A stretch of DNA of 19,162 nucleotides, from positions 1-19,162 of the IMG/VR virus record IMGVR_UViG_2734482785_000012; one strand, written 5' to 3'. Positions within the stretch are counted from its first letter, which is position 1; the number at the start of each line of letters is the position of its first letter. The notes beneath the pieces were generated by a model. That model was given only the letters and a program-made list of their open reading frames with translations. It did not search any database and was not told the DNA's origin. The position numbers and the translations under genes are program-made. The DNA is from a virus (lineage: Duplodnaviria; Heunggongvirae; Uroviricota; Caudoviricetes). Below, piece after piece: positions 1,248 to 19,162 of this stretch.

Positions 1248-1258
1248 TGTCTGGTTGT

Positions 1259-3525: not shown

Positions 3526-3535
3526 CGCTGTCACC

Positions 3536-5556: not shown

Positions 5557-5647
5557 GCAAATGTTCTTGGATGTTACTGGCTTACTTCTTTTGTGAAGTT
5601 GCCTTTACTAACGTTGAGCGAGCCGGGTCACTCCCCGGCTTTTTTTC
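5557..5647 (+). ncRNA. Putative short antisense RNA (lambda oop-like arrangement) ending at a plus-strand intrinsic terminator
   Basis: Plus-strand hairpin agccggg-tcactc-cccggct (5621-5640) followed by tttttt (5641-5646); no plus-strand gene ends here. Candidate promoter ttgaaa (5520-5525), 18-bp spacer, tatttt (5544-5549). Predicted RNA of about 90 nt, antisense to the Rha 3' end and the intergenic region. Confidence 0.3.
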
Positions 5648-6395
5648 ACCGCTGCCAACCAATAACCTGAAATAACCCCATTTTCGGGTGATACCAGCGA
5701 GTCCCTCGCGGTTCTACTTCCTCCATAACCCGATAAAAAGCAGCCATAAACGGTTCCACAGCAACAATTGCGCGACGTGACAACAATCCGTCCGGCGTCA
5801 TGAACTCATGTGTGTCTGTAGGAATTTGATAGGCGTTCACCAGATTGCGGCATTTATCATCTGACAAACCGGTTTTCGCTTTCAGTTGGCGATATCCGGC
5901 ATAGCCCTCACGAATGGTGCCCTTTTTGATTTGCTCAACTGTTTCGGCAACGTGGCTGACTTTTTCTTCCACCTGAGTGATCCGTTTCTGCTGACGAACA
6001 GCTTCAAGAGCCATCGCAGCAACCATTTCGATTTCGCTCATTGGTTTACGGATCTGTTCTTCCAGTTCGCGCCAGCGATCTACCAGGCGAGCAGTGAATT
6101 CAGGACAGAGCTGTGCGACGACAATGATGCTGTCGCGCTTACCTTGTTCTCCTTCAAACAGGTAATGCTCATATTGAACTTTAAAACCTAAGTTATTGAT
6201 TCTTTCGGAAACCTCAATTTGAGGAGACCGGACAACGCCACCTTTGGCTAATGTTTCAATAGTGCGTTTCACATTGTCATGACGTTTACCCACCAGCTCT
6301 GCAATTTCAACGCTGGTCATGGATACTTTGCCGTTAAAAATTGCGGTGTTCACTACCATCTCCTTACGGATAAATTCTTTTAAAATTCCGCACAT
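5646..6395 (-). CDS. Phage regulatory protein, Rha family (N-terminal Rha domain plus C-terminal domain of unknown function)
   Basis: Translation contains the Rha-type motif VEIAELVGKRHDNVKRTIETL. True start may be an internal GTG or ATG near 6353-6359, which is preceded by AAGGAG; the ATG at 6395 lacks an SD. Confidence 0.65.
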   Translation of the reverse strand: MCGILKEFIRKEMVVNTAIFNGKVSMTSVEIAELVGKRHDNVKRTIETLAKGGVVRSPQIEVSERINNLGFKVQYEHYLFEGEQGKRDSIIVVAQLCPEFTARLVDRWRELEEQIRKPMSEIEMVAAMALEAVRQQKRITQVEEKVSHVAETVEQIKKGTIREGYAGYRQLKAKTGLSDDKCRNLVNAYQIPTDTHEFMTPDGLLSRRAIVAVEPFMAAFYRVMEEVEPRGTRWYHPKMGLFQVIGWQR

Positions 6396-6472
6396 TCGTA
6401 CTTGTTGGTGTCGAACCTTTCTTCAGTTATCCTTTTGATCCCTATAAACAAAAGAACCAAAGGAGGTTCGAC

Positions 6473-6940
6473 ATGACTTTAAAATCAGTTCACAAGCTGC
6501 TAAAAGAGCATCTTTATACTCTGTATTCGGTTTTGCCTGCGTCCACGAAAGCAATTGAACTTCGAAATCGAACTAGTTGTCGCGCTATTGCTTTAACTTT
6601 TCTTTACCAAGCAATCATGGATTACAAACGCAACCATGCACTGCTAGGCTTATCTTCCCGAGAAACAATCATTCACATGCTTTACGAGGATGCAAAACTT
6701 ACAATTACTGACTTGGAACAAATTCAGCTTTCGCTTGTACTGAAAATTCTTGCTCCCCGTTTTGCGCGAATAGAAGCCAGTGTTTCTCCCGATTTTTCTG
6801 CAATGGTTCAAGACATGACTCAATGGCTTGAAGACAACTCCGAATGGATTTCGAGGTCTCATGAAGCAACTTCAGATCTTCCTGAATTAAAATGGTCAGA
6901 TCTTCCGAACGAGTTGTTTCCACTAACTCTAGGTAAGTAA
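6473..6940 (+). CDS. Hypothetical protein (155 aa)
   Basis: ATG at 6473 preceded by a near-perfect SD, AAAGGAGGT, 7 nt upstream. On the opposite strand to the surrounding early-right operon. Its 3' 236 bp overlap the convergent ORF 6705..7124. Confidence 0.5.
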   Translation: MTLKSVHKLLKEHLYTLYSVLPASTKAIELRNRTSCRAIALTFLYQAIMDYKRNHALLGLSSRETIIHMLYEDAKLTITDLEQIQLSLVLKILAPRFARIEASVSPDFSAMVQDMTQWLEDNSEWISRSHEATSDLPELKWSDLPNELFPLTLGK

Positions 6941-7124
6941 TTTTTTTCGACATATCGTCAAGTACATCTCGTAAACCGTCAGCTAAGGAAGGCAGACGGT
7001 TTACGGCATACCGTAAAGGTCCACCAGAATCCATCTCTTCAGCCGCTTCCGCTAACTCCTTGAGGTAAAGATTTATTTGACGATCAGTCATTCCAGTCGC
7101 ACTAATTTTGATTTTGTTATCCAT
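6705..7124 (-). CDS. Hypothetical protein (139 aa) immediately downstream of cro (cII/YdaT position)
   Basis: ATG at 7124..7122 preceded by GGGAGG. C-terminal part overlaps the plus-strand ORF 6473..6940, so the true 3' end is uncertain. Confidence 0.45.
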   Translation of the reverse strand: MDNKIKISATGMTDRQINLYLKELAEAAEEMDSGGPLRYAVNRLPSLADGLRDVLDDMSKKITYLELVETTRSEDLTILIQEDLKLLHETSKSIRSCLQAIESCLEPLQKNREKHWLLFAQNGEQEFSVQAKAEFVPSQ

Positions 7125-7160
7125 ATTTCCTCCCGCAACCTGCTAAAACAAATCCGTTCA

Positions 7161-7406
7161 TCACTTCTCATCCTCTATATGCGCTAAGCTTGGGTGTGGG
7201 AAAAGTTCTGGTAGATCTGGACGAAATTCATACGCCTGGATCTTTCCGTCGACAGCTGCAACCAATAACGGCACAAATTCGGGTGAAATTTTGTTCTTGC
7301 AGTTAAGCCAATCACAGACTGTTGATTGAGCCTTTCCGCATCGCTTGGCTAAGGCTTGTTGGCTCCCAAGAATCTCAATGGCTTTCTCTATAGCTTTATG
7401 TTTCAT
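7161..7406 (-). CDS. Cro-like HTH regulator (YdaS/Cro family)
   Basis: 81-aa product from the ATG at 7406..7404, preceded by AGGAG. HTH segment LGSQQALAKRCGKAQSTVCDWLN. Divergent from the CI-like gene. The track's longer model starts at 7478. Confidence 0.65.
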   Translation of the reverse strand: MKHKAIEKAIEILGSQQALAKRCGKAQSTVCDWLNCKNKISPEFVPLLVAAVDGKIQAYEFRPDLPELFPHPSLAHIEDEK

Positions 7407-7525
7407 AATCGCATCTCCTATTGACGACATAATATCAATAGGTAATTCGATATTCAACGTTAAACCTAGAAGTTTCATCGGAAAGCCGATAAACTGCCCA
7501 ATATAGAGAGGAGAGGAAGATCACA
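7407..7525. promoter_or_regulatory. Divergent immunity-region promoter/operator (OR-like) between the cro-like and CI-like genes
   Basis: Palindrome cctattga-N10-tcaatagg at 7417-7442. Candidate minus-strand PR: -35 ttgaat (7457..7452), 17-bp spacer, -10 tattat (7434..7429), overlapped by the palindrome. Second palindrome atcgg-aaag-ccgat near 7477-7490. The motif AATAGGTAA recurs at the promoter at 8287-8315. Confidence 0.5.
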
Positions 7526-8218
7526 ATGACATTTTCAGAACGACTTGATTTAGCTATGCGCAACGCAAAATTTACGCAAGGCAGGCTAGCCAAAGAAGTA
7601 GGTATGGCCCAGTCAAGCGTCAATCAATTACTTAACAAAGCCAACGGCTCTAGGAAAACAGTTGAAATAGCAAAAGTTTTGGGCGTTAACCCGGAATGGC
7701 TCGCATCTGGTGTCGGCCCAATGGAAATCGAGACCTCTGCAGACTCACACCAAATACGTAACATTTCAGAAGACAGAGTTACTGATTCGTATGTCGTGGA
7801 TGTTTTAGACATCAGATACAGTTGCGGACCTGGTAGTTATAACTCTGATTTTCCAGACATTGTCAGATCTATAGCGATAGAACCAGGATACGCATCAAGA
7901 GTTTTTGGCGGCAGACCAGCATCAGCAATCAAAGCAATAAACGCCCACGGCGACAGCATGAAAGGCACAATAAACCCTGAGGACTTGGTGTTTGTTGACG
8001 TATCAGTTCGCTCATTTAATGGCGATGGTATATACGCTTTTACATACTCTGGAACATCGCACATCAAAAGGCTTCAAAAAATCAAAGATACCCTAACAGT
8101 GATCTCAGACAATCCAGCTTACAAAGATTGGGCTATCGAACAAGATGACTTCGAGCAACTTCACATTGACGGAAAAGTAATCGTAAGTTGGCCTATGACG
8201 CTACACCGTTTCGCATAA
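7526..8218 (+). CDS. cI: CI-like prophage repressor (N-terminal HTH, C-terminal LexA/S24 peptidase-like autocleavage domain)
   Basis: 230-aa ORF with SD gagaggagagg upstream. HTH segment QGRLAKEVGMAQSSVNQLLN. C-terminal Ser/Lys dyad motifs GDSM and KRL. Confidence 0.85.
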   Translation: MTFSERLDLAMRNAKFTQGRLAKEVGMAQSSVNQLLNKANGSRKTVEIAKVLGVNPEWLASGVGPMEIETSADSHQIRNISEDRVTDSYVVDVLDIRYSCGPGSYNSDFPDIVRSIAIEPGYASRVFGGRPASAIKAINAHGDSMKGTINPEDLVFVDVSVRSFNGDGIYAFTYSGTSHIKRLQKIKDTLTVISDNPAYKDWAIEQDDFEQLHIDGKVIVSWPMTLHRFA

Positions 8219-8240
8219 GCGATAATTATTTAACACCCCG

Positions 8241-8265
8241 CCCACTCCACGAGTGGGTTTTTTTT
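8241..8265 (+). terminator. Rho-independent terminator after the CI-like gene (possibly bidirectional)
   Basis: Stem cccactc / gagtggg with loop cac, followed by tttttttt (8258-8265) and flanked by an A-run on the other side (8266-8274). Confidence 0.65.
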
Positions 8266-8286
8266 GAAAAAAAATCGACAAACCGA

Positions 8287-8315
8287 TTGACACCACAAAT
8301 AGGTAAACCTATTAT
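8287..8315 (+). promoter_or_regulatory. Strong sigma70-type promoter with embedded palindromic operator (PL/OL-like)
   Basis: -35 TTGACA (8287-8292), 17-bp spacer, -10 TATTAT (8310-8315). The spacer and -10 contain the palindrome AATAGGT-AA-ACCTATT (8298-8313). Confidence 0.6.
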
Positions 8316-8364
8316 CATGACATAAGTATCGAACTCACCAAAACAATTATAGAGGATGAGGAAA

Positions 8365-8775
8365 ATGTCATCGTATATGGGGTTACCAACAAATCAACAC
8401 GATGTTCTTGAGAATATTCAACTCTTAGTAGGGGCTGGAGCACTACTGTATAGCAGCAATAACCCAGAGTTAGTTGAACTTGCCAGCTCCATCCTAGCTG
8501 TAACTCAAAAATATAGCCTCGCTGCGTCGCGTTCATGTAAACAAAATTTAGCTATTAATTCACGGAATCGGATTCGTATCCAACGCGAAGCCTGCGGCTT
8601 AACAACCGCCGAACTCGCCAGGCTGCTCGATCTCGATGAAGAAATCATCATCCAGTGGGAGAGCGGAGAGTATGAACCAACTATCAGTATGCTTATCCCG
8701 CTGGCAAATGTTCTTGGTTGCGACCCGATGTGGCTGTTAACCGGTAAACCAACAGCTGAGGATACTTGCGCATGA
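8365..8775 (+). CDS. Helix-turn-helix (XRE/Cro-C1-type) DNA-binding protein, first gene of the early-left transcript
   Basis: C-terminal HTH region GLTTAELARLLDLDEEIIIQWESGEYEPTISMLIPLANVLGCDPMWLLTG. ATG at 8365; the track started at 8356. Stop overlaps the next start (ATGA). Confidence 0.55.
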   Translation: MSSYMGLPTNQHDVLENIQLLVGAGALLYSSNNPELVELASSILAVTQKYSLAASRSCKQNLAINSRNRIRIQREACGLTTAELARLLDLDEEIIIQWESGEYEPTISMLIPLANVLGCDPMWLLTGKPTAEDTCA

Positions 8776-9137
8776 AAAAGTTCGAAAACATAACTGTTCT
8801 CCATGTTGATGAATTTGATTATACAAACCAGGAATTTCTCCCGGAGGTTATAAAAGCAATAGAAGTTGCCGATATAGTGTTTAGAGGAAAGAGAATTGTC
8901 AAAAACAGGCTCGCATGCACTTCAGGAGCAATGACAGAAACAACCTCACAACAAGATGATTATGAAGGCATTTGTCTGGAGCCTGATTCATTTGCGGTAA
9001 ATGTTTATCATTTATTGCATGCAACACAGGTATTACATATGTCCAGTAATCACGAGACAAAAACACTTGGCAGCGAAATTCTGAATTTTGCATGTGAATA
9101 TGCAAAAGCTGCTGCCGAAAAAGAATTAGCACAATAA
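8772..9137 (+). CDS. Hypothetical protein (121 aa), translationally coupled to the HTH gene
   Basis: ATG at 8772 overlaps the upstream TGA. GAGGA lies 9 nt upstream. No motif recognised. Confidence 0.5.
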   Translation: MKKFENITVLHVDEFDYTNQEFLPEVIKAIEVADIVFRGKRIVKNRLACTSGAMTETTSQQDDYEGICLEPDSFAVNVYHLLHATQVLHMSSNHETKTLGSEILNFACEYAKAAAEKELAQ

Positions 9138-9217
9138 CAACAAACATGCCCTGAACGTTTATTACGGTTTTATCGCCGGGGATTGTTACAACCTTTATTC
9201 ATAGAGGGAACTCAGTT

Positions 9218-9331
9218 ATGACTTTCCTGAAAAATAAGGCATCGTATAAAACTGCCTGCCTCATTGCACAACATGGAGATTCTTATCTTCATATAGCCAA
9301 CCTGTATTTGCGCAAAGCATATGGGAGATAA
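9218..9331 (+). CDS. Small ORF (37 aa)
   Basis: ATG at 9218 preceded by agaggg. Stop lies 4 nt before the next start. Too short to judge on composition. Confidence 0.3.
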   Translation: MTFLKNKASYKTACLIAQHGDSYLHIANLYLRKAYGR

Positions 9332-9335
9332 ATAA

Positions 9336-9524
9336 ATGGAAGAAAAACAACAGAACATAACACATGAAAAAGTAAGAGTGTTGCTAACCATTGAAAATGG
9401 GAAAGTAATTTACTCAAAACATCTGTTGGATAATGAATTCGTTGGTTGCATGGATACATTTCTGTGGATGGCAAAAAGAGCTGGCTACACGATTATTCCA
9501 CCAGCAAAGGAGCAAACATTATGA
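9336..9524 (+). CDS. Hypothetical small protein (62 aa)
   Basis: ATG preceded by GGGAGA. Stop overlaps the next start (ATGA at 9521-9524). Confidence 0.45.
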   Translation: MEEKQQNITHEKVRVLLTIENGKVIYSKHLLDNEFVGCMDTFLWMAKRAGYTIIPPAKEQTL

Positions 9525-10102
9525 ATCATTCAGAGTTCCGACCAGTGGTTACGCCACATGGCATAAAAATTGGCAATACAACCATTGATTATGTTGAGGC
9601 CGTACAGCGGCTTAATAATGGTGAATACGATTATCCAAATTCTCACGGTTTAAGAATTATGCAATGTATTGCTGAAGCCGATGATGCCGGATTACTGGGA
9701 CGATTTTCAGTCGATATGAAGGTTGCTCAATGGCGATGGCTGTATGTGACAACATTTATAAATGAAGAGGAAGACAAGAACGGCACTGTTGATATCCCTA
9801 ACGATAATGGAACTACAGCTCGCGCAGTTATTTATAAAGGGAAATATGGTTGTATGGGTATCTACCCAGGATCAATTCGAATTGCCCTGCAAAACCATGT
9901 CGAACGGGGATTTATTGAAAAATATGGCGAAGCTGAAGGCATGGGGCGAGTTCTGTTTCTCTATCAAAAAATGCTCATCGTAGATCCAGGCAATGGCTTC
10001 ATTACCTCTACTATGGGACGCGAAGGACTTGAACTCCTTCTGGATGAAATGATTCACGATCTGAATACTCATGGTATGCCAGAAGCGCCAGTGACACATT
10101 AA
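9521..10102 (+). CDS. Hypothetical protein (193 aa), AT-rich accessory gene
   Basis: ATG at 9521 preceded by AAGGAG (8-nt spacing). The track's longer model starts at 9446. No motif recognised. Confidence 0.55.
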   Translation: MNHSEFRPVVTPHGIKIGNTTIDYVEAVQRLNNGEYDYPNSHGLRIMQCIAEADDAGLLGRFSVDMKVAQWRWLYVTTFINEEEDKNGTVDIPNDNGTTARAVIYKGKYGCMGIYPGSIRIALQNHVERGFIEKYGEAEGMGRVLFLYQKMLIVDPGNGFITSTMGREGLELLLDEMIHDLNTHGMPEAPVTH

Positions 10103-10109
10103 ATATTAA

Positions 10110-10134
10110 GAAGAATATAATTCTTCCGTTTTTT
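10110..10134 (+). terminator. Rho-independent terminator
   Basis: Stem gaagaat / attcttc with loop ata, followed by cgtttttt. Confidence 0.6.
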
Positions 10135-10147
10135 ACTAACCGTTTAT

Positions 10148-10255
10148 ATGAAAAGCAACCGTGAATTAAGCAGAGTAAAACTGCTTTTAATCCTTGCCAC
10201 AGTACTGACACTAACAGAAATCATTATTCTCTTTATTGCGCTGTCAGTCAGTTAA
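10148..10255 (+). CDS. Small hydrophobic peptide (35 aa, single predicted transmembrane helix)
   Basis: Translation MKSNRELSRVKLLLILATVLTLTEIIILFIALSVS. No clear SD, and shorter than the ORF-track cutoff. Confidence 0.3.
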   Translation: MKSNRELSRVKLLLILATVLTLTEIIILFIALSVS

Positions 10256-10278
10256 AAATATCGGGATGCAACAAACCA

Positions 10279-10467
10279 ATGAGATTGTATTTCAGAATAG
10301 TAATTTTACTGGCAATTATCGCATGCATTTACGGACTACTCGTCCCGTTCCTTATATCCATGAAGGATACGGTAGCAGTCATTTCCGGTTTTGCACTGGC
10401 GTTTCTGACCCCGCCCTGCATTTATGCCATTTACAAGGGTCTTTCTTTCACTAAGGATAAAAGATGA
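10279..10467 (+). CDS. Small membrane protein (62 aa, two predicted transmembrane helices)
   Basis: Hydrophobic segments IVILLAIIACIYGLLVPFLI and VAVISGFALAFL. Stop overlaps the start of the SPFH gene (ATGA). Confidence 0.4.
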   Translation: MRLYFRIVILLAIIACIYGLLVPFLISMKDTVAVISGFALAFLTPPCIYAIYKGLSFTKDKR

Positions 10468-11291
10468 AAAAAGTTATTTTTGCTTTAGCCATTGTTCTTC
10501 CGACCATTGGCCTTGTCGGTTGCGATCGCGTTGAACCAGGTAATGTTGGCATTAAGGTAAATAAACTGGGCGACGACAAAGGCGTCGGTGAAGTGGTTGG
10601 CGTTGGCCGCTACTGGACCGGCTGGAATACTGAAGTTTACATCTTCCCGACCTTCAAACAAATGAAGACCTACGATGAACCGTTCAGTTTCCAGATGAGT
10701 GACGGTACAACCATCGGCTATCACATCGGCGTGGCCTACAAGGTTGATCCATCCAAAGTTACCACGGTGTTTCAGACTTACCGCAAAGGCGTGGATGACA
10801 TAACCGATACCGACCTGCGTCAGAAGATCGCCGACGCACTCAACCGACTGGCCAGCAAAATGACCACCGACAAATTTATCGACGGCGGGAAGTCTGAACT
10901 ACTGGATGCAGCTCTTAAAGACATTCAGGAGGAAATGACCCCCATCGGTATTCAGGTAATGAGCCTCTCATATGTGGGTAAGCCGGAGTACCCGTCAACC
11001 GTTATCGACAGCATTAATGCCAAAGTCACGGCGAACCAGAAAACCCTGCAACGCGAACAGGAAGTAAAACAGCGCGAAGCGGAAGCCAACATGTTGCGCG
11101 CGGAAGCTGCCGGACAGGCAGATGCAATTCGCACAAAAGCCCAGGCCGAAGCCGATGCTATTCGTTTACGCGGTGAAGCTCTGCGCCAGAACCCCGGAGT
11201 TATGGAACTGGAAGCCATCAATAAATGGAACGGCATACTGCCGCAATACATGACCAGCGGTGCTAATACACCATTTATCCAGGTTAAATAA
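10464..11291 (+). CDS. SPFH/band-7 (prohibitin/stomatin-like) domain lipoprotein
   Basis: Signal peptide with lipobox LVGC (MKKVIFALAIVLPTIGLVGC). Central SPFH-like domain and a C-terminal Ala/Glu/Gln-rich coiled coil (QREQEVKQREAEANMLRAEAAGQADAIRTKAQAEADAIRLRGEA). SD AAGGA upstream. Confidence 0.75.
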   Translation: MKKVIFALAIVLPTIGLVGCDRVEPGNVGIKVNKLGDDKGVGEVVGVGRYWTGWNTEVYIFPTFKQMKTYDEPFSFQMSDGTTIGYHIGVAYKVDPSKVTTVFQTYRKGVDDITDTDLRQKIADALNRLASKMTTDKFIDGGKSELLDAALKDIQEEMTPIGIQVMSLSYVGKPEYPSTVIDSINAKVTANQKTLQREQEVKQREAEANMLRAEAAGQADAIRTKAQAEADAIRLRGEALRQNPGVMELEAINKWNGILPQYMTSGANTPFIQVK

Positions 11292-11331
11292 CTTATACGC
11301 CCGGCAGGGCGCCGGGCTAAGGAAAGAACAG

Positions 11332-11703
11332 ATGAACACCCAGAATACTCAACAGCAAATAATGAACTATGACCCAAATCTGACGTCGTGCGGACGCATG
11401 GCAAAACAAACCGTTCGATTAACTTTCGGACTATGGGAATACCGCGAAACATTCGAAGTTACTGTCGGTGGCAATCTGACCGGACTGGATGTTATCAGTT
11501 GCGCTATTGAAAGCCTGTACGCAACGCTGCCTTATGAAGAAGTCGAGGATGAGCGCACAGGGGAAACAGATATCATGGCCACCATTAATATTGGCGAACT
11601 GATATGTCAGGATGAAGACCTGTCTGGAGAACTCTGGCTTGCCGGGATGCTTATCTCAGCAGAAATTATCAGTATTGAACCCGCTACAAACATACGGCTC
11701 TGA
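11332..11703 (+). CDS. Hypothetical protein (123 aa)
   Basis: ATG at 11332 preceded by aaggaaag. The track's longer model starts at 11260. Preceded by the GC stem-loop gcccggc-agggc-gccgggc (11299-11317). Confidence 0.5.
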   Translation: MNTQNTQQQIMNYDPNLTSCGRMAKQTVRLTFGLWEYRETFEVTVGGNLTGLDVISCAIESLYATLPYEEVEDERTGETDIMATINIGELICQDEDLSGELWLAGMLISAEIISIEPATNIRL

Positions 11704-11734
11704 AGTTCTCATTATTCAGAGAGCAGGAGAAAAA

Positions 11735-11977
11735 ATGTTCGCTTTGATTAATCAAGGACAACTGTATACCGACAGTGCAGGTTACCCGGTAAAAATTATT
11801 CGCTGCATAAATAACACTGTGTTGTACAGAAGAATGGATGGGCGAACACAGTCGGTAAAACTAAACGATTTTAATGAATTGTTTGAACGGCTCGATCACC
11901 AGGAATACCGACAAATTCTGGCAGAAACAGAACAGGAAACTCATCTGAAGAAATTACGAGCCATGCAAAGGAAGTAA
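11735..11977 (+). CDS. Hypothetical protein (80 aa)
   Basis: ATG at 11735 preceded by gcaggag. The track's longer model starts at 11612. Confidence 0.5.
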   Translation: MFALINQGQLYTDSAGYPVKIIRCINNTVLYRRMDGRTQSVKLNDFNELFERLDHQEYRQILAETEQETHLKKLRAMQRK

Positions 11978-11980
11978 AGA

Positions 11981-12127
11981 ATGAATAAAGCGTTTGAGCT
12001 ATGGGTACGCCAGCGTTACGGCAATCGCTATGACCTGACGCGAGATGTTGACGGTTTCTACTGCCGTGAAATTGTGAAACGAATGTTTGAAGTGTGGTGC
12101 CACTGCCGTGGACTGAATGTTGTGTGA
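11981..12127 (+). CDS. Small ORF (48 aa, Cys/Trp-containing)
   Basis: ATG at 11981 preceded by aggaag, 3 nt after the previous stop. Translation MNKAFELWVRQRYGNRYDLTRDVDGFYCREIVKRMFEVWCHCRGLNVV. Confidence 0.35.
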   Translation: MNKAFELWVRQRYGNRYDLTRDVDGFYCREIVKRMFEVWCHCRGLNVV

Positions 12128-12135
12128 GGTGAACT

Positions 12136-12345
12136 GTGGGGCTGGATTGCGTACCTATATCAACCTACTGCCGCAACGCGGGAGAAACGGTTGATGCCGT
12201 TAACAAACGGATACAAAGAGGAATATGGAAAGAAGGGGTACATGTATTAAAAGTCGACGGGGTTAAAGAACGTTGGGTCGACTTAATGGAGATTACAAAA
12301 TGGGCAAGAAAGAACAAGGATCATTATCTCTCCCCAGAGGAGTAA
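12136..12345 (+). CDS. xis: Excisionase-like DNA-binding protein (Xis position)
   Basis: 69-aa ORF with GTG start preceded by GAGGTG. Winged-helix-like pattern (ETVDAVNKRIQRGIW...VKERWVDLMEITKW). 3' end overlaps the integrase start by 46 nt, as in xis-int pairs. Confidence 0.55.
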   Translation: MGLDCVPISTYCRNAGETVDAVNKRIQRGIWKEGVHVLKVDGVKERWVDLMEITKWARKNKDHYLSPEE

Positions 12346-13472
12346 CTATTCGGCAACATAAAACTGGTAGCACTCTGGTTATCACTTTTACATATAAAGG
12401 GGTTCTGTGTCGGGAGCCCCTCTCCAGAATGGAAGTAAACGCGCGCGGTGTGAAGTACGCCGAGCGTCTGCTGGGAGAAATAAAAAATCAGATTATCGAT
12501 GGTACCTTCGAATATGCAAAATACTTCCCCAACTCCCAAAAGCTGAAGTTGTTCGGGGGAGTGAAAAAAAACAAAAATATAAAATCTTACCTGGATGAAT
12601 ACCTGATTATCTGCCAGAACCGTAACCTGTCACCATCGACAATTAGAGGTTATGAAAAATGCCTGTCGGCGCTGTCAGCATTGCATAAATTTCATGTATC
12701 AGAACTGACACCTGCAGTACTAAAAAACTGGATCGCCAGCAGAAAAACAAAACTGAAAACGATCCGCAATAATCTTTCGTTTCTGCGCAGCGCCATAGAT
12801 GAGGCGGTGACCGATGGTTTGTTAACAATAAATCCTGTCACGCTAGTCAGCGCCAGCCGATATCACGTATTAGACAACACACCAGGCAGTGATGATTACG
12901 AGGTCGATCCTTTTACGCCAGCGGAGACAGCAGCAATCTATGACGCCTGTCATTACCCGGAATGGCGAAATCTATTTCGCTTCGCCTTTAATACCGGGCT
13001 GCGCAGCTCGGAATTGTGCGCATTGCGCTGGACAGATATAGACTTCATCGGCAACACAGCGCATGTCCAGACTGCAAGTGTAGTCGGGGTAATCAAAAGC
13101 ACCAAAACAAAAGCCGGCACTCGCAAAGTACAACTGAACAGCGAAGCGCTGGCAGCTCTTCAGGCACAAAAGCCCTACACGGCGCTAAAAAGCGACTTTA
13201 TATTCAGCGATCCAAAAACTCGCGCCCCTTGGGCAAACGCGGACGCGATCCGAAAAAAAGCCTGGGTGCCGACCCTTAAAAAGGCTGGTGTACGCTATCG
13301 CAATCCGTACCAGACACGCCATACGTTCGCCACTCGGCACATTAGCCAGGGCGTTAACCTGTTCTGGCTTGCTGGTCAGATGGGGCATAAAGGACCGGAA
13401 ATGCTGTTCAGACATTACGGCTCTTACCTTGCAGAATACGATGGAAAAACGGCGATTTCTGCAGCCCCGTAA
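12300..13472 (+). CDS. int: Prophage tyrosine integrase (site-specific recombinase)
   Basis: Catalytic-domain motifs (TGLRSSELCALRW; HTFATRHISQGVNLFWLAGQMGHKGPEMLFRHYGSY with the R..H-x-x-R..Y signature). ATG at 12300; the track used an upstream TTG at 12273. Lies next to the attachment core. Confidence 0.85.
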   Translation: MGKKEQGSLSLPRGVTIRQHKTGSTLVITFTYKGVLCREPLSRMEVNARGVKYAERLLGEIKNQIIDGTFEYAKYFPNSQKLKLFGGVKKNKNIKSYLDEYLIICQNRNLSPSTIRGYEKCLSALSALHKFHVSELTPAVLKNWIASRKTKLKTIRNNLSFLRSAIDEAVTDGLLTINPVTLVSASRYHVLDNTPGSDDYEVDPFTPAETAAIYDACHYPEWRNLFRFAFNTGLRSSELCALRWTDIDFIGNTAHVQTASVVGVIKSTKTKAGTRKVQLNSEALAALQAQKPYTALKSDFIFSDPKTRAPWANADAIRKKAWVPTLKKAGVRYRNPYQTRHTFATRHISQGVNLFWLAGQMGHKGPEMLFRHYGSYLAEYDGKTAISAAP

Positions 13473-13604
13473 CGGCAAAATATTTCAAAATGTTGTACAG
13501 AATCAGGACGTTACAGGGACAGCAATATGTACGTAAAATGCACATAATTCCTTGTTTGAAAAAATAAATCGTTCATATTCAATAAATTGGATTAATCACG
13601 ATCA

Positions 13605-13631
13605 CGGGTTCAACTCCCGCCAGCTCCACCA
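13605..13631 (+). other. ssrA: Attachment-site core: 27 nt matching the 3' end of tmRNA (ssrA); a fragment, not a complete gene
   Basis: cgggttcaactcccgccagctccacca matches the 3' terminus of the E. coli tmRNA as I recall it. Sequence upstream of 13605 diverges from ssrA. Lies between the prophage int and the P4-type integrase. Confidence 0.65.
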
Positions 13632-13796
13632 CTTTTTAGTTGTTTGAAGTTCAATGAAGTCTACTAAGCCCACACAGCACAAGCTCTGCGGGCTTTTTTA
13701 CGTCTATTGTCGTCCAGTGAGAATTGCTGAGAACTACGAGTTATGGCACCCTGAATGGGACCCACTAAGAAGGGTCCAAAAACCGAGGGTCCCAAA

Positions 13797-15026
13797 ATGG
13801 CAAAAATCGCTAAGAAGCTCACTGACACTGAAATCAAAAGCACCAAGCCAGCCGATAAAGAAATCAACTTGTTTGACGGTGATGGTCTGATTCTACGAAT
13901 CGCTCCTTTGGCGAAAGGAGGCAAGAAAAATTGGTATTTCAGGTATGCAGTACCAGTGAGCAAGAAAAGAACCAAAATGAGCCTTGGGACATATCCTCAC
14001 CTTACCCTTGCAAGAGCCAGAGCCTTACGTGATGAATATCTCTCCTTTCTGGCAAATGGTGTTGATCCCCAAATCCATAACAACGATAAGGCGAAGGCAT
14101 TAAAGAGTGCTACTGAGCACACTCTCCAAGCCGTAGCGCGGAAATGGTTAGATGAGAAGGTAAAGACATCAGGTATCTCACAAGACCATGCAGCAGACAT
14201 CTGGCGCAGCTTAGAGAGAAATGTCTTTCCCGGTCTGGGTAATGTCCCTATCAATGAGATCCGACCTAAGCTCTTAAAACAACACCTTGATCCTATTGAG
14301 CAACGAGGCGTATTGGAAACTCTACGCCGTATCATTTCACGTCTGAATGAAATCTTCCGGTGGGCAGCTACTGAAGAACTTATTGAGTTCAACCCGGCTG
14401 ACAACCTTGGTCAAAGATTCAGTAAACCAAAAAAGCAAAATATGCCTGCCCTTCCCCCAAGCGAATTGCCAAGGTTTATGGAATCTTTGACGAATGCGTC
14501 AATCCGGTTGGAAACACGTATGCTAATTGAATGGCAATTGTTGACATGGGTTCGTCCGGGTGAAGCCGTTCGCGCAAGGTGGTCTGATATTGATACAACC
14601 AACAGCATTTGGAACATTCCTGCTGATTTCATGAAAATGAAAAAGCTTCACAAAGTTCCTTTGAGTAAAGAAGCTTTGCGCATCCTTGAATTAATGAAAT
14701 CAATAAGTGGGCATAGAGAATGGGTTTTCCCCAGCATAAAAGCGCCTCTTAATCATATGCATGAACAAACAGCCAACGCAGCTATCATCCGAATGGGGTT
14801 CGGAGGCGAGCTTGTAGCTCACGGTATGCGTTCTATTGCACGAACAGCGGCAGAGGAGTCTGGTAAATTCAGAGCTGAAGTTCTTGAGGCAGCGCTTGCC
14901 CACTCGAAAAAAGATGAAATTATCGCAGCATACAATCGTGCAGAATATCTGATAGAGCGACAGAGTTTGATGCAATGGTGGAGTGATTACGTTCAAGCTC
15001 AAAGATCAAATGCTCTGGTAGCCTAA
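13797..15026 (+). CDS. P4-type (IntA/CP4-57-like) tyrosine integrase
   Basis: N-terminus MAKIAKKLTDTEIKSTKPADKEINLFDGDGLILRIAP is typical of P4-family integrases. Catalytic region has R (VRPGEAVRARW), HGMRS and Y (AAYNRAEY). ATG at 13797; the track's longer model starts at 13755. Lies directly downstream of the tmRNA 3'-end core. Confidence 0.85.
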   Translation: MAKIAKKLTDTEIKSTKPADKEINLFDGDGLILRIAPLAKGGKKNWYFRYAVPVSKKRTKMSLGTYPHLTLARARALRDEYLSFLANGVDPQIHNNDKAKALKSATEHTLQAVARKWLDEKVKTSGISQDHAADIWRSLERNVFPGLGNVPINEIRPKLLKQHLDPIEQRGVLETLRRIISRLNEIFRWAATEELIEFNPADNLGQRFSKPKKQNMPALPPSELPRFMESLTNASIRLETRMLIEWQLLTWVRPGEAVRARWSDIDTTNSIWNIPADFMKMKKLHKVPLSKEALRILELMKSISGHREWVFPSIKAPLNHMHEQTANAAIIRMGFGGELVAHGMRSIARTAAEESGKFRAEVLEAALAHSKKDEIIAAYNRAEYLIERQSLMQWWSDYVQAQRSNALVA

Positions 15027-15064: not shown

Positions 15065-15481
15065 ATGGAAACCCTATTCAAAGTTTTTGAAAAATTTAGT
15101 TCCAGACCACTTTTTTTTATTTTTTTCGGACTCTCACTTTGTGAATTTTTTCAGAAACAATCTGTTCTGATGAATCCATCAGCAGATAACATCGCGAAAT
15201 TATTCGCAGCCATGATATTAGTTGTTTTTTTTACTTGGGGATTTGAATGGCTAATCTTCAAGTTCAATGTAAACCTTGAACCTCATGATCAAGGCGATAT
15301 TGGACCAACAATTGGAACGGCTACTTTAGCTGTATACTTAGTTTATGCCTTTCACTTTCTCAGTGAAAATCCTGAAGCATTAAATTTAAAGTTATTAACT
15401 AACTCTGGCTTTATATACAGCACAACTCTATTATTATTCTCATTAGAATGCATGAAGCTTAGAAGACTTAAACAAAAATAA
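15065..15481 (+). CDS. Hypothetical integral membrane protein (138 aa, 3-4 predicted transmembrane helices)
   Basis: AT-rich. Hydrophobic segments PLFFIFFGLSL, LFAAMILVVFFTWGFEWLIF, TIGTATLAVYLVYAFHFL, FIYSTTLLLFSL. Convergent with the receiver-domain gene. Confidence 0.5.
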   Translation: METLFKVFEKFSSRPLFFIFFGLSLCEFFQKQSVLMNPSADNIAKLFAAMILVVFFTWGFEWLIFKFNVNLEPHDQGDIGPTIGTATLAVYLVYAFHFLSENPEALNLKLLTNSGFIYSTTLLLFSLECMKLRRLKQK

Positions 15482-15552
15482 ACAACATCATTGTGATGAT
15501 AAATATAAAATAGGCATGGCGAAAAAAAATCACCACGCCTAAAATATAATAA

Positions 15553-17301
15553 TTATGGTAGCATCATTGATACATAATCCACACCAATCCTTGAGCTATA
15601 CTGAGACGCTATAGCCTGATATCTTTCTGCATAACCAGTTCTCAGTTGAGATTTAAGTTTGAGTCGGACAGGAACATTTTGCACGTTGCCATCCATATTA
15701 CTTAAAAACACGGCAGAAATAATATTTTTTTCTTCGCCATCAACTGTTGTTCCATGATTCAACACCACCATATAATCAACAACAGGAAGCGTTTTATCCC
15801 CTTCGAAAATAGAGAGATATTTTCTTTGATTTTTATGCATTACATATATATATTTCGAATGTTCAGCAAATGGCAATGCTTTACTCTGACTGGCGTTAAA
15901 AAGCTCCAGAACTTTAATGAGCCTGTGCGGACTTAATCTTACATGGTGAGGGTCGTTACCCTGAGTAGGAACCAAATCACATGCCGCAGATACACATAAA
16001 TACCATTTGTTCGACTCTGTATCAAAGAAAATAGTGCCAGTAGAAATATGACCATCTTCAAAATTCTTTGAAGACAAATTCATATTTAAAGCATGATACA
16101 TTTCGTGATAAGTATCATTATTTGATGGCAGATCCATTTTTGAAGAGCAATATTGGAGCAATGCAGCAACTCCGCTGTTAGCGTATTCATTTGAATAGCT
16201 ATCAAAAACACTTTTGATAAATTCATCCAGCGTATTATTATTTTTAAGTCTTTGATAAAGCTCTTCTGATAAATTACCAAATACAAAGTCAATATTTCTA
16301 CATCTAATATCAGGCGAGTCTGATTTTAATATCTCATTTAACCACGCAGCTTGACCGTAATGATCGTTAGCCAAATGATTTACAAAAGATAAAGCCTCAG
16401 CTTCGATTGCATTCTGAATTTCAGATTTTATTAACTGATAATAAGATGGTTTCCATTCAATGAGAGAATCATTGAGAGTTTGCCAAATCCTATCTCCATC
16501 GTTTTCATGATCATCTTGAACCTTATGAAATAGGGAGACAAAGATATTACCACATTGAATCCATTTTACTCCGCTTTCATCACCCCGAATGACATTGCCA
16601 GATGTGTTGCTAGAAATAATTGCATTTCTAGACACAGCATATTCTGCAATCATTTTTGCAATGAAGTTTTTATCCTTTTGATCCTCCAACACAGCATCAT
16701 CATGTATTAATCTTTTAATTCTTCTACAAGGCTTACTGTCTTTAATATAGGCTATTGTTTCATCTCTTGTGAGAGCTTTATTACCATTATCATTTAAGTT
16801 CGGTAATACAACGTCTTCCCAATAACTTTGGACATCTTCATTATCGTAGTCAATGATCAAGCTGTTGATATCCAGAGCACCTTTGAGAGTCGATGATATC
16901 TGCATCCAAACCGTTTCTAAATTCTCTCTAGTATATATTACAATCATATTTAAATGATCGGAGTCTTTCAAATCTTGTAATAGTTTAAGTGTTTTATCAG
17001 GTGCATTATTATCAAGATGATAATCTACAATAATAAGATCTGATTTTCTAATCCGATCCACATCGAAATTAACAGAACCATTGTCAACATCACAAATCAT
17101 ATTTTTAGATTGAAAAAAGCTCTCAAGAGTAGCGGCTCGTTTAGATGAGTCAATTTTGTTGTAGTCTAAATCAACTTCGTTATTCAACGCCCTGATTGAT
17201 TCAGAATACGTCAGAAAATCGTCATCAATCATGACAACGGAACGAATTGCATTTTCGCAGAAAGTTTTCTGGACAAGAGAATTATAATTTGCCACTGTCA
17301 T
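15553..17301 (-). CDS. Receiver (REC) domain protein with large C-terminal domain of unknown function (about 430 aa)
   Basis: N-terminal REC signature in the correct order and spacing: VVMIDDD (acidic pocket), LIIVDYHL (phospho-acceptor Asp), MIVIYT (conserved Thr), TLKG (Lys). ATG at 17301..17299 preceded by GGAG, 1 nt after the kinase-like gene stop (TAA-T-ATG); the track's model starts at 17319. About 30% GC. Confidence 0.7.
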   Translation of the reverse strand: MTVANYNSLVQKTFCENAIRSVVMIDDDFLTYSESIRALNNEVDLDYNKIDSSKRAATLESFFQSKNMICDVDNGSVNFDVDRIRKSDLIIVDYHLDNNAPDKTLKLLQDLKDSDHLNMIVIYTRENLETVWMQISSTLKGALDINSLIIDYDNEDVQSYWEDVVLPNLNDNGNKALTRDETIAYIKDSKPCRRIKRLIHDDAVLEDQKDKNFIAKMIAEYAVSRNAIISSNTSGNVIRGDESGVKWIQCGNIFVSLFHKVQDDHENDGDRIWQTLNDSLIEWKPSYYQLIKSEIQNAIEAEALSFVNHLANDHYGQAAWLNEILKSDSPDIRCRNIDFVFGNLSEELYQRLKNNNTLDEFIKSVFDSYSNEYANSGVAALLQYCSSKMDLPSNNDTYHEMYHALNMNLSSKNFEDGHISTGTIFFDTESNKWYLCVSAACDLVPTQGNDPHHVRLSPHRLIKVLELFNASQSKALPFAEHSKYIYVMHKNQRKYLSIFEGDKTLPVVDYMVVLNHGTTVDGEEKNIISAVFLSNMDGNVQNVPVRLKLKSQLRTGYAERYQAIASQYSSRIGVDYVSMMLP

Positions 17302-17302
17302 A

Positions 17303-19021
17303 TTAGAACTCCACTCCATTGAACTGGATCACAAAATTAGCGCCATCTTTTATTAAATAGTTATCGCCTTCATCAGGTTCTGAATACCATATTTTATGAT
17401 GTGCAACAGCAAGGTTTTCTCGACATAGATACAGACCTACCCCATGTCCATTTGCTCTTTTGCTATAAAATAGTTCAAATAGTCGCGGGATATCATCGGT
17501 ATCAATTGCCGGACCAGAATTTGCTATGATAACCAAAGAATTCACAAAACCAATCTTTATGAGCCTATTATTTGACAGACTGACCCAATACATTGCATTG
17601 TTGATAATATTAGTAAAAACAGGATAGATCCTTGATGGTATATCTGTTATTGCGATTTGCTTAAACTCTTCACTAAATTCAATAGTTATTCGTTGCCGTT
17701 CGAAACGCTCCCCAAAGAACTTCAGGACATAATCCATGATATTTTTTCCAGTTATTCTCTGCCTGGATTGATAACCTGATATTTTCAAAGGTGATAAGAA
17801 ACGTATTTGTTGAGTAAGCGATCTGTGAGCATTTAACGCCAATGAAAAACCAGGGTGTTCTTTTACAGAAGTAGGAAGAGAGTTTAGTCCTCTGGTTACC
17901 ATAGAATCCATTTCTTCAAGTTCATGAGATATTATCTCAACACTAATACCTAACTGTGCAAGCGCGTTTAAACTTTTAGCTTTTTCTTCAAAATATGAGC
18001 GTTCTTCTTCAGATAATGAGAATGCTGAATCTAAGTTTATACCTTCAAATAATCTATCGAGACCTTTTATTATTGATTGATATTTGAAAGTTAGGGTATC
18101 AACTGACTCAACATATAAACTATCGAGCAAATTAAACACATTTTCAATTTGTGAATCATTATCTATTGAATCAACAACTGATATAGTTTTAGCATAATAA
18201 TCACTTCGATCAACCTTTATTTCATCGGCCCATTTTTTTAAAAGAGAATGTATCTTCTCCTCTATCGTGTTATTAAACTTAGTTAGTTTAGAATTAATAA
18301 TACCTTGATTTTTTTCAAGGTGATTTTTCGCTGACAATGAAGGCTCAAGTTTATTTAATTCAGAATCAAGTTTATTAATTGCTAACTTCATTTGTAGAAT
18401 ATACGCAGAGAACTCATTAAATTTATCTCTGTAGTCTCTATATTTCTCTTCATACATTCCAAGTTTTGGAGGTTTGATAGGCGTTTTAATTTCACTGCGC
18501 AACGCATCTAAGTTTGTAAGATCACTGTCTATAATTTTAAGATAGTTTAAATCTAACGAACCATCAGTTTTATCAAGCTTAGTTTTCAGCCTTTTAACAG
18601 CCTCCAAGGAAGCATCAAGAACTGGTGTCTGATTCTTCAAAGCTTCTGAAAAACTTTTTTGTGTTGATTTTCGAGCTTGTTGTTGAGCAGATTTTCTTAA
18701 CTCTTTTTCACGCTTAACTTGTTCTAAAAGCTCTTTACGGTCATCAGAACGTGAACCAAAAAATCTATCAGCAAGTTCAGTTAACAAATTAGATATAATA
18801 GTTTTCAGTTCTCTTGCAGCCTGGTTTCTTATGAATCCCTCTCTCCCCGACTTATCTTTCAGCTCTTTATTACTGGATTGAGTAATTCCAATATAACCAA
18901 AAATCCTTCTATTAGACCAATAATATCGCCCTGCATTCCATGAACGTCTTTCTTCTATCTGGAAGAAATCATTATCTACTCGACCATAAGGTAATACTCT
19001 CAAGCTATCCCTAAAAATCAT
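17303..19021 (-). CDS. Cytoplasmic histidine-kinase-like protein (HisKA H-box plus GHKL/HATPase_c core) with coiled-coil-rich N-terminal region; reading frame open upstream to 19147
   Basis: H-box ISHELEEMDSM, N-box FTNIINNAMYW, G1 ANSGPAIDTDD, G2 GHGVGLYLC. No hydrophobic transmembrane segments. The frame continues without a stop or start codon from 19021 up to 19147 (…FDLKAKKYAGL before the Met), so the annotated Met may be internal. Confidence 0.7.
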   Translation of the reverse strand: MIFRDSLRVLPYGRVDNDFFQIEERRSWNAGRYYWSNRRIFGYIGITQSSNKELKDKSGREGFIRNQAARELKTIISNLLTELADRFFGSRSDDRKELLEQVKREKELRKSAQQQARKSTQKSFSEALKNQTPVLDASLEAVKRLKTKLDKTDGSLDLNYLKIIDSDLTNLDALRSEIKTPIKPPKLGMYEEKYRDYRDKFNEFSAYILQMKLAINKLDSELNKLEPSLSAKNHLEKNQGIINSKLTKFNNTIEEKIHSLLKKWADEIKVDRSDYYAKTISVVDSIDNDSQIENVFNLLDSLYVESVDTLTFKYQSIIKGLDRLFEGINLDSAFSLSEEERSYFEEKAKSLNALAQLGISVEIISHELEEMDSMVTRGLNSLPTSVKEHPGFSLALNAHRSLTQQIRFLSPLKISGYQSRQRITGKNIMDYVLKFFGERFERQRITIEFSEEFKQIAITDIPSRIYPVFTNIINNAMYWVSLSNNRLIKIGFVNSLVIIANSGPAIDTDDIPRLFELFYSKRANGHGVGLYLCRENLAVAHHKIWYSEPDEGDNYLIKDGANFVIQFNGVEF

Positions 19022-19142
19022 TAGTCCTGCATACTTTTTGGCCTTAAGATCAAAGTGGGAATGTTCACGTTCAGTATGTGATGTATTTTGTGAAAGGAAT
19101 TCAAACGTTCCTATCTGAAGCTCAAATGGGCCGACCCCTGCG

Positions 19143-19162
19143 TGATCCTACCCACGTAATAT
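19143..19162. mobile_element. Probable terminal inverted repeat of an IS3-family insertion sequence (element continues beyond the window)
   Basis: tgatcctacccacgtaatat has the TGATC-TACCCA terminus typical of IS3-type inverted repeats. The first in-frame stop upstream of the kinase-like ORF (cta at 19148-19150) lies inside it. Confidence 0.45.

What the first reader, a model, noticed from the sequence alone, without database searches (positions are those of the whole stretch)
15553..19147. Tightly linked cytoplasmic histidine-kinase-like and receiver-domain gene pair on an ssrA-associated islet: candidate two-component-type defence or signalling module
Seen in sequence: the upstream gene carries the H-box (SHEL), N-box (NIINNAMYW), G1 and G2 (GHGVGLYL) of a histidine kinase and has no transmembrane segment. 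The downstream gene starts 1 nt after its stop and carries REC motifs (DDD, VDYHL, T, K), followed by about 430 aa with no DNA-binding or other motif I recognise. The region is about 30% GC and sits between a P4-type integrase and an apparent IS end. Established knowledge: Detocs-type defensive two-component systems pair a cytoplasmic kinase-like sensor with a receiver-domain effector, usually with a separate receiver-only buffer protein, which is not seen here. Inference: a phage-sensing or abortive-infection module with an uncharacterised effector; the convergent membrane protein (15065-15481) may belong to it.
Basis: partly seen in the sequence, partly recalled or inferred. Interest (0 to 1): 0.85.

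Follow-up and report, generated by a model that had tools for sequence, protein, structure and literature searches.

The report
IS3-truncated remnant of methylase-kinase-receiver system
The kinase-like and receiver-domain gene pair is real, but it belongs to a gene-pair family already described by computer analysis in 2021, and this E. coli copy is a leftover whose partner DNA methylase gene and the front third of the kinase gene were removed at an IS3 insertion.

Summary

This is the HEF_HK/Response_reg_2 "TCS-like" pair described computationally by Bellieny-Rabelo et al. 2021 (PMC8011034). It is not Detocs.

All 8 independent non-E. coli loci examined carry a three-gene set: a C5 DNA methylase, a ~980-994-aa kinase with an N-terminal MORC/MutL-like GHKL ATPase, and the receiver protein. 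They ride on an integrative mobilisable element, an ICE and Tn7.

In the window an IS3 end (19143-19162) cuts the kinase gene. The first 374 aa (the GHKL module), the methylase and the operon's 5' region are gone. All ~560 E. coli genomes carrying the gene have this same truncation.

Best reading: a decayed remnant of a restriction-modification-like, phosphorelay-gated mobile-element system. The defence function is inferred, not shown. Interest in this window is low to moderate.

The parts
15553..17301 (-). Receiver-domain effector gene (582 aa from the ATG at 17301; an alternative ATG at 17319 overlaps the kinase gene by 17 nt). It is intact.
   Evidence: Identical to RefSeq WP_000214990. Differs from the intact Salmonella locus by 7 synonymous and 2 non-synonymous codons.
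16516..17247 (-). Split receiver (REC) domain, aa ~19-262. Acidic pair D26/D27, phospho-acceptor D93, T124 and K260, with a ~100-aa helical insertion (aa ~141-237) before beta5.
15556..16515 (-). C-terminal output module, aa 263-582: a helical bundle followed by a beta-rich domain. Conserved motifs are HALN (403-406), TGT (421-423), CVSxACDxVP (436-445), PHR (458-460), QLRxxYAxR (552-560) and RIGVD (571-575). Activity is unknown.
17303..19142 (-). 3' remnant of the kinase-like gene, corresponding to aa 375-988 of the 988-aa full-length protein. The annotated 572-aa ORF starts at the ATG at 19021, inside a conserved middle domain.
   Evidence: Full-length relatives P0003, P0005 and P0006 are 99% identical over the shared part.
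17780..17956 (-). DHp-like HEF_HK domain with the H-box (ISHELEE; His at aa 408 of the 614-aa frame).
   Evidence: Pfam PF19191 E=1e-5, above its cut-off. The His is invariant.
17363..17638 (-). Catalytic ATP-binding domain (HATPase_c) with N, G1 and G2 boxes.
   Evidence: Pfam PF02518 E=2e-11. PDB sensor-kinase catalytic domains, E=9e-12. Invariant N513, N517, G545, G567, G569 and G571.
19143..19162 (.). Terminal inverted repeat of IS3 (reverse complement TGATCCTACCCACGTAATAT), running off the window end. This is the point where the kinase gene is cut.
   Evidence: Homology to the full-length Salmonella gene stops at ~19142. The annotated IS3 transposase is adjacent and co-directional in strain 94-3024. 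Junction alignment.
15511..15541 (-). Terminator-like hairpin (12-bp stem followed by a T run), 12 nt after the receiver gene's stop.
15065..15481 (+). Convergent 138-aa hydrophobic protein. It is a lineage-specific neighbour, not a core component.
   Evidence: Present at 100% identity in L002-L004 and 81% in L013. Absent from L005, L008-L011, L014 and L015.
13755..15026 (+). P4-type tyrosine integrase of the ancestral ssrA-integrated element.
   Evidence: The same integrase (Arm-DNA-bind_3, Phage_int_M, Phage_integrase) flanks the intact system in Salmonella L002-L004. ssrA lies directly upstream of it in E. coli 94-3024.

Best explanation
The window holds the decayed end of an ssrA-integrated mobilisable element. 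Its cargo was a three-gene operon: C5 DNA methylase, then a paraMORC-type GHKL ATPase fused to a histidine-kinase core, then a receiver-domain effector.

Shown. An IS3 element sits at the break point. The methylase, the operon's 5' region and kinase residues 1-374 (the MutL/MORC-like GHKL module) are missing. What remains is a kinase stub (part of the middle domain, coiled coil, DHp and catalytic domain) translationally coupled to an intact receiver-effector gene. The same truncated allele is fixed in about 10% of complete E. coli genomes.

Inferred, for the intact system. The methylase marks host DNA. The GHKL/clamp module of the kinase reports DNA lacking that mark, or another invasion cue, by ATP-dependent dimerisation. 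The His in SHELE is autophosphorylated and passes the phosphate to D93 of the receiver. This releases the C-terminal output module, a toxin or nucleic-acid-targeting effector with a possibly MazF/CcdB-like barrel. On this view the kinase plus receiver protein act as the 'restriction' half of a restriction-modification-like defence or addiction module.

Inferred, for the window copy. With no sensor, no methylase and no promoter of its own, it is most likely inert. At most it is expressed weakly by read-through from IS3.
For: Family identity: Pfam HEF_HK, HATPase_c and Response_reg_2, all above cut-off. These families were defined in PMC8011034, which reports 91.6% linkage, upstream C5 methylases and no experiment.

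Truncation: full-length relatives of 988 aa at 99% identity carry an N-terminal HATPase_c_3. Homology breaks at window ~19142, against an IS3 inverted repeat. IS3 is annotated there in strain 94-3024, with a chromosomal pseudogene on its other side. In the distant-mode search, 560 of the 561 E. coli genomes that hold the gene match at 99% identity or more (the other at 95-99%), none extends past the junction, and all lie on the chromosome.

Triad: the methylase is adjacent in 8 of 8 independent non-E. coli loci. Receiver-protein identity to the window ranges from 25% to 99%. The loci sit on an IME with a relaxase, on an ICE, as Tn7 cargo and in chromosomes. The genes overlap or abut. One locus has a convergent methylase plus an HTH controller-like gene, as in classical type II systems. 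No separate nuclease gene is conserved.

Phosphorelay residues are invariant, the receiver fold is confirmed and the catalytic domain matches solved sensor kinases.

Precedent: a paraMORC3-type GHKL ATPase gates a nuclease in the validated anti-phage protein VcSduA (PMC12137116). paraMORCs are linked to R-M operons (PMC2292703).

A single deletion removed the methylase and the kinase's sensor half together. That is what is expected if losing the methylase alone were harmful.
Against: No experiment on any member of this family was found in the library. Defence, self/non-self discrimination by methylation, phosphotransfer and effector toxicity are therefore all inferred.

PADLOC-DB v2 has no model for either protein.

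The receiver gene in the window is intact, with 7 synonymous to 2 non-synonymous changes against Salmonella. Some retained function cannot be excluded.

Whether IS3 itself caused the deletion is inferred from the junction only. IS3-less variants exist and look secondarily derived.
Confidence: 0.6

Rival explanations
1. The two genes as they stand in the window are a working two-component defence or abortive-infection module. The kinase core, now free of its sensor, still phosphorylates the receiver effector.
For: The H, N and G boxes and the whole receiver-effector gene are intact. The genes are translationally coupled. IS3 lies upstream and co-directional, so read-through transcription is possible. 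The allele is retained at 99% identity or more in ~560 genomes.
Against: The annotated ORF begins inside a conserved domain. The sensor ATPase, the operon's 5' region and the methylase are gone. No promoter-like excess was found (16 sites against 18 expected). The kinase remnant shows 5 non-synonymous to 4 synonymous changes against Salmonella, compared with 2 to 7 in the receiver gene; these counts are small. High identity across E. coli reflects recent shared ancestry, not selection.
Confidence: 0.12
2. The suggestion made in PMC8011034. The pair is a regulatory two-component system that controls restriction-modification or other genes and is not itself an effector.
For: It has canonical phosphorelay residues and is linked to R-M genes. 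The receiver protein's helical region could bind a partner.
Confidence: 0.13
3. The triad is mainly an addiction (post-segregational killing) module that stabilises mobile elements. The methylase acts as antidote and the kinase plus receiver-effector as toxin. Phage defence would be incidental.
For: It is always cargo of an IME, an ICE or Tn7. The toxin-like fold is a lead. The methylase and the kinase's sensor half were lost together in E. coli. In a K. pneumoniae locus the kinase gene is frameshifted while the methylase is kept.
Against: This cannot be told apart from the defence reading with sequence data. Classical R-M systems do both. The frameshift could be a sequencing error.
Confidence: 0.15

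Closest known systems
HEF_HK / Response_reg_2 'two-component-system-like' gene pair (Bellieny-Rabelo, Pretorius & Moleleki 2021, Genome Biol Evol; PMC8011034; Pfam PF19191 and PF19192)
   Same: Both Pfam families hit above their cut-offs. The genes are adjacent and co-directional, the kinase is soluble, and the H-box His and the receiver Asp/Thr/Lys are conserved. E. coli members were already in that study's data set.
   Different: The window copy lacks the N-terminal HATPase_c_3 present in 83% of the family, and lacks the upstream C5 methylase. Here this 'group 2' architecture is shown to result from an IS3 truncation, not to be a native variant.
Detocs (DtcA kinase, DtcB buffer receiver, DtcC receiver-PNP effector; from my own knowledge of Rousset et al. 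2023)
   Same: The logic is similar: a cytoplasmic kinase-like sensor phosphorylates a receiver domain fused to a non-DNA-binding effector, carried on mobile or defence DNA.
   Different: There is no receiver-only buffer gene and no PNP effector. The kinase's sensor is a MORC/MutL-like GHKL ATPase. A C5 DNA methylase is an obligate partner in intact loci. No PADLOC model hits meaningfully.
paraMORC/MORC GHKL ATPases of restriction-modification operons (Iyer, Abhiman & Aravind 2008, PMC2292703), including the validated paraMORC3-type Shedu protein VcSduA (PMC12137116)
   Same: Full-length relatives have an N-terminal MutL/MORC-like GHKL domain (HATPase_c_3; weak matches to PMS2 and MutL). They are linked to cytosine methylases, and elsewhere to Vsr. 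A GHKL module gating a downstream effector has experimental precedent.
   Different: Here the GHKL module is fused to a DHp plus catalytic kinase core, and the effector is a separate receiver-domain protein. The effector is neither a fused PD-(D/E)xK nuclease nor a helicase partner. In the window the GHKL module itself is deleted.
Type II restriction-modification systems
   Same: Intact loci have a C5 methylase tightly coupled to the other genes. In Acinetobacter there is a convergent methylase plus an HTH controller-like gene. The methylase hits PADLOC MTase_II models.
   Different: No recognisable restriction endonuclease is present. Its place is taken by the kinase and receiver-effector pair. 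The window has no methylase at all.
MazF/Kid/CcdB toxin fold
   Different: Sequence identity is 5-11%. Foldseek and HHalign give no support. The catalytic residues cannot be mapped. This is a lead only.

Membership tests
HEF_HK / Response_reg_2 TCS-like pair (PMC8011034) | Kinase-like protein with a HEF_HK (DHp-like) domain carrying the core His, next to a C-terminal HATPase_c | tested here: met
   PF19191 26.2 bits (cut-off 24.1). PF02518 44.7 bits (cut-off 26.4). His invariant.
HEF_HK / Response_reg_2 TCS-like pair (PMC8011034) | Adjacent gene encoding a Response_reg_2 receiver domain | tested here: met
   PF19192 109 bits (cut-off 27). A 1-nt intergenic gap.
HEF_HK / Response_reg_2 TCS-like pair (PMC8011034) | N-terminal HATPase_c_3 (paraMORC-type GHKL) on the kinase-like protein (83% of the family) | tested here: not met
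   Absent from the window. It is present in the 99%-identical full-length relatives, and was lost here at the IS3 junction.
HEF_HK / Response_reg_2 TCS-like pair (PMC8011034) | Neighbouring C5 cytosine DNA methylase | tested here: not met
   None in the window or in E. coli 94-3024. Present in 8 of 8 non-E. coli loci.
Classical two-component system | Kinase H, N, G1 and G2 boxes, and receiver DD/D/T/K residues on a CheY-like fold | tested here: met
Classical two-component system | His-to-Asp phosphotransfer between the two proteins | not testable with these tools
   Needs in vitro phosphorylation assays. No published assay was found.
Classical two-component system | A sensor input domain on the kinase | tested here: not met
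   The N-terminal 374 aa, which occupy the sensor position in full-length relatives, are deleted.
Detocs | Three genes including a receiver-only buffer protein (DtcB) and a receiver-PNP effector (DtcC) | tested here: not met
   No third receiver gene in the window or in any related locus. No PNP or other family on the effector. No meaningful PADLOC hit. Whether PADLOC-DB v2.0.0 contains Detocs models was not verified.
Type II restriction-modification system | A methyltransferase together with a cognate restriction endonuclease | tested here: not met
   No methylase in the window. No recognisable endonuclease domain in the window or in intact loci.
MazF/CcdB toxin superfamily (effector domain) | Significant fold or profile similarity with mappable catalytic residues | tested here: inconclusive
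IS3-disrupted pseudogene / island remnant | An IS terminal repeat abutting an internal point of a gene that is longer elsewhere, with unrelated DNA on the far side of the IS | tested here: met

The most novel reading that the evidence does not exclude
The intact ancestor of this islet (C5 methylase, paraMORC-histidine kinase, receiver-effector) could be an uncharacterised class of methylation-keyed immunity or addiction system. In it, a DNA-clamping GHKL ATPase would convert 'unmarked DNA' into a His-Asp phosphorelay that unleashes an effector of a new, possibly MazF/CcdB-like, fold. That would be restriction without a classical restriction enzyme. A weaker corollary is that the E. coli stub plus intact effector still has some activity.
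Probability: 0.35. Interest if true: 0.7.

Novelty: already known. Interest (0 to 1): 0.3.

Why it matters
For this window, the result mainly corrects annotation. The E. coli "ATP-binding protein" (572 aa) and "response regulator receiver domain" genes occur in about 10% of complete genomes, including O26:H11, O111:H8, O104:H21 and O178:H19 strains. They are the stump of a larger mobile element and should not be counted as an intact two-component or defence system.

It also suggests that the "HEF_HK + HATPase_c only" architecture class in the 2021 description includes broken genes.

More broadly, the constant methylase-kinase-receiver triad on an IME, an ICE and Tn7 is a clean, untested candidate for signalling-gated restriction. 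The full-length Salmonella, Klebsiella or Serratia alleles are 99% identical to the E. coli remnant, which makes them convenient for experiments.

Tried and rejected
Detocs or any other catalogued defence system. PADLOC-DB gave only noise for the window proteins (E 0.003-0.03, unrelated models). It gave nothing for the full-length kinases or a distant receiver protein.

NCBIfam gave only sub-threshold matches to generic sensor-kinase catalytic domains.

PHROGs contains these proteins only as function-unknown families.

MADS and other later-named systems. Literature searches found no experimental paper on this pair.

MazF/CcdB homology was tested and not confirmed by Foldseek or HHalign.

The membrane protein as a fourth component was rejected as core.

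A tmRNA gene inside the window was not found. ssrA association is shown only through the identical islet in strain 94-3024.

Codon-level comparison with the Salmonella allele has too few differences to decide on selection.
Full report
**1. What is in the sequence**

The region holds two minus-strand ORFs. The upstream one runs 17303..19021 (572 aa from its first ATG). Its frame stays open back to 19147, where an in-frame TAG lies at 19150-19148. The downstream one runs 15553..17319. RefSeq starts the downstream gene at the ATG at 17301, one nucleotide after the upstream TAA. A GGAG sits 8 nt before that ATG.

- In the upstream protein: SHEL, NIINNAMYW and GHGVGLYL.
- In the downstream protein: DDD, VDYHL, the Thr of VIYT and the Lys of FHK.

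Neither protein has a hydrophobic stretch compatible with a membrane segment. GC content is 34%.

**2. Are the domains real?**

Yes.
- Pfam scores the upstream protein above cut-off for HATPase_c (E=2e-11) and HEF_HK (E=1e-5). It scores the downstream protein for Response_reg_2 (E=3.7e-31).
- A profile of the kinase family matches the catalytic domains of solved sensor kinases: ThkA 3a0t (E=9e-12), FixL, SrrB and ZraS.
- In an alignment reaching 34% identity, the H-box His and the N, G1 and G2 residues are invariant.
- In 39 receiver-protein homologues reaching 23% identity, D26, D27, D93, T124 and K260 are invariant.

The conserved Lys (K260) lies after a ~100-residue helical insertion, so the receiver domain spans about residues 19-262. 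The unassigned C-terminal part is therefore about 320 aa, not 430.

**3. It is a known family**

HEF_HK (PF19191) and Response_reg_2 (PF19192) were created from exactly this gene pair by Bellieny-Rabelo, Pretorius and Moleleki (Genome Biol Evol 2021; PMC8011034). That paper reports the following:
- 91.6% linkage of the two genes across 644 regions;
- soluble kinases;
- an N-terminal HATPase_c_3 in 83% of them, implying a paraMORC relationship;
- C5 DNA methylases frequently located upstream of the pair;
- enrichment of restriction-modification genes nearby.

E. coli members were in its data set. The work is purely computational and proposes a regulatory link to R-M systems. I found no later experimental paper in the library. 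PADLOC-DB v2 has no model for either protein.

**4. The window copy is truncated**

The closest relatives of the kinase-like protein are 988 aa and 99% identical over the shared part. They come from Salmonella, Klebsiella and Serratia. They carry HATPase_c_3 at residues 28-137, which the window lacks.

Aligned to the Salmonella gene, homology stops at window ~19142. The remaining 20 nt (19143-19162) are the terminal inverted repeat of IS3.

In E. coli 94-3024 the gene order is ssrA, integrase, 138-aa gene, receiver gene, kinase stub, IS3 and then a chromosomal amylase-like pseudogene. The IS3 transposase is co-directional with the kinase stub. The rest of the island is therefore gone: kinase residues 1-374, the methylase and the mobilisation genes.

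The annotated 572-aa ORF starts at MIFRDSLRVLPYGRVDNDFF, in the middle of one of the most conserved blocks of the family.

In the distant-mode search, 560 of the 561 E. coli genomes that hold the gene match at 99% identity or more, and the other at 95-99%. Every match is chromosomal and none extends past the junction. A few strains lack IS3 and also lack ~24 nt of its right flank, so they look secondarily derived.

**5. What the intact system looks like**

I examined eight independent non-E. coli loci, with receiver-protein identity to the window from 99% down to 25%. In every one a C5 DNA methylase is adjacent to the kinase-receiver pair.

- Seven loci have the order methylase, kinase, receiver protein, co-directional, with overlapping or abutting genes:
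  - a Salmonella integrative mobilisable element with the same integrase and 138-aa gene plus a relaxase (L002-L004);
  - an E. coli ICE (L005-L007);
  - a metagenomic contig (L008);
  - a distant genome (L009);
  - K. pneumoniae (L013);
  - Pantoea (L014);
  - a second K. pneumoniae lineage (L015).
- In the Acinetobacter Tn7 cargo version (L010/L011) the methylase is convergent and paired with a small HTH_3 gene, the layout of a controller-protein type II R-M system.

No restriction endonuclease gene is conserved with the triad. The methylase hits PADLOC type II methyltransferase models.

**6. The output domain**

The C-terminal 321 aa modelled on their own (pLDDT 85) form a helical bundle followed by a beta-rich domain. 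The strongly conserved motifs are HALN, TGT, CVSxACDxVP, PHR, QLRxxYAxR and RIGVD. They are rich in Arg, His, Asp, Thr and Tyr.

- Sequence searches find no family.
- A scan of 1.84 billion representative proteins finds the domain in 344 clusters, essentially always at residues ~260-600 of ~560-660-aa proteins. It is therefore dedicated to this receiver.
- Foldseek finds nothing (best E 0.038).
- HHalign against MazF or CcdB gives 0.1% probability.

I therefore treat "toxin-like barrel" as a lead only.

**7. Mechanism**

Shown: the anatomy, the truncation, the constant triad and its carriage on mobile elements.

Inferred: the triad works like a restriction-modification system whose "R" function is a phosphorelay.
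- The methylase marks self DNA.
- The MutL/MORC-like GHKL module of the kinase acts as the DNA-facing sensor. It matches PMS2 and MutL weakly.
- The His-Asp relay activates the effector.

Precedents. paraMORC ATPases are embedded in R-M operons (PMC2292703). A paraMORC3-type GHKL ATPase gates a nuclease in the experimentally validated anti-phage protein VcSduA (PMC12137116).

In E. coli a single deletion removed the methylase and the sensor half of the kinase together. This fits the idea that losing the methylase alone would be harmful, but it does not prove it.

The remnant has no recognisable promoter and could at best be read through from IS3. A strong terminator-like hairpin follows the receiver gene. 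Against the Salmonella allele, the receiver gene shows 7 synonymous and 2 non-synonymous codon changes, and the kinase stub 4 and 5. These counts are too small to decide on selection.

**8. Rivals**

This is unlikely given the missing sensor, methylase and promoter, but it is not excluded.
- A purely regulatory two-component system is unlikely. The output has no DNA-binding signature, and the conserved unit contains nothing to regulate but the methylase.
- An addiction-module reading overlaps with the R-M-like reading and cannot be separated from it computationally.

**9. Verdict**

The Detocs analogy captures the logic (a kinase-like sensor feeding a receiver-fused effector) but not the membership.

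The pair is already described as a family, and the copy in this window is an IS3-truncated relic. The interesting object is the intact triad in other Enterobacterales, which remains experimentally untouched.

Noticed in passing
window 1-13700 (C4 antisense RNA 5287-5374 -, isrK 5399-5475 -, integrase 12273-13472 +): The left 13.7 kb is the early/immunity end of a prophage with its own integrase. It lies in tandem with the older ssrA islet. ARAGORN and Rfam find no tmRNA gene inside the window, so the 'ssrA-associated' label rests on the identical islet in other E. coli genomes.
   Followed up: partly
L013 5734-8719 (K. pneumoniae CP141543.1): The methylase is kept, but the kinase gene is split by a 1-nt insertion into a 314-aa HATPase_c_3 piece and a 572-aa HEF_HK/HATPase_c piece. 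Many 572-aa entries from other genera (Pectobacterium, Shigella, Salmonella, Yersinia, Morganella, Serratia) suggest recurrent breakage, or annotation of broken genes. The 'group 2' architecture of the 2021 paper may be partly made of pseudogenes. A sequencing error is not excluded.
   Followed up: partly
L012 5330-5345 versus L001 16163-17400: Some E. coli (for example 2011C-4251) lack IS3 at the junction. There the kinase stub is fused directly to the amylase-like pseudogene, and ~24 nt of the IS3 right flank are also missing. This implies a second deletion, not an ancestral IS-free state.
   Followed up: partly
L010/L011 5050-11104 (Acinetobacter junii, Tn7 tnsBCDE cargo): In this version of the triad the C5 methylase is convergent and preceded by a 71-aa HTH_3 protein. 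This resembles controller (C) proteins of type II R-M systems.
   Followed up: partly
window 16516-17247 (-): The receiver domain is interrupted by a ~100-aa helical insertion between alpha4 and beta5. The Pfam Response_reg_2 model (aa 25-181) stops before the conserved Lys (K260).
   Followed up: partly
window 15065-15481 (+): The 138-aa hydrophobic protein is 100% conserved next to the intact system in Salmonella and 81% in K. pneumoniae, but absent from more distant loci. It may be a lineage-specific accessory or merely a syntenic passenger.
   Followed up: yes
L015 8042-9815: In a K. pneumoniae lineage the triad is followed by a 168-aa unknown protein and a protein with a weak HEPN_RiboL-PSP match. 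This points to a defence-island-like neighbourhood.
   Followed up: no
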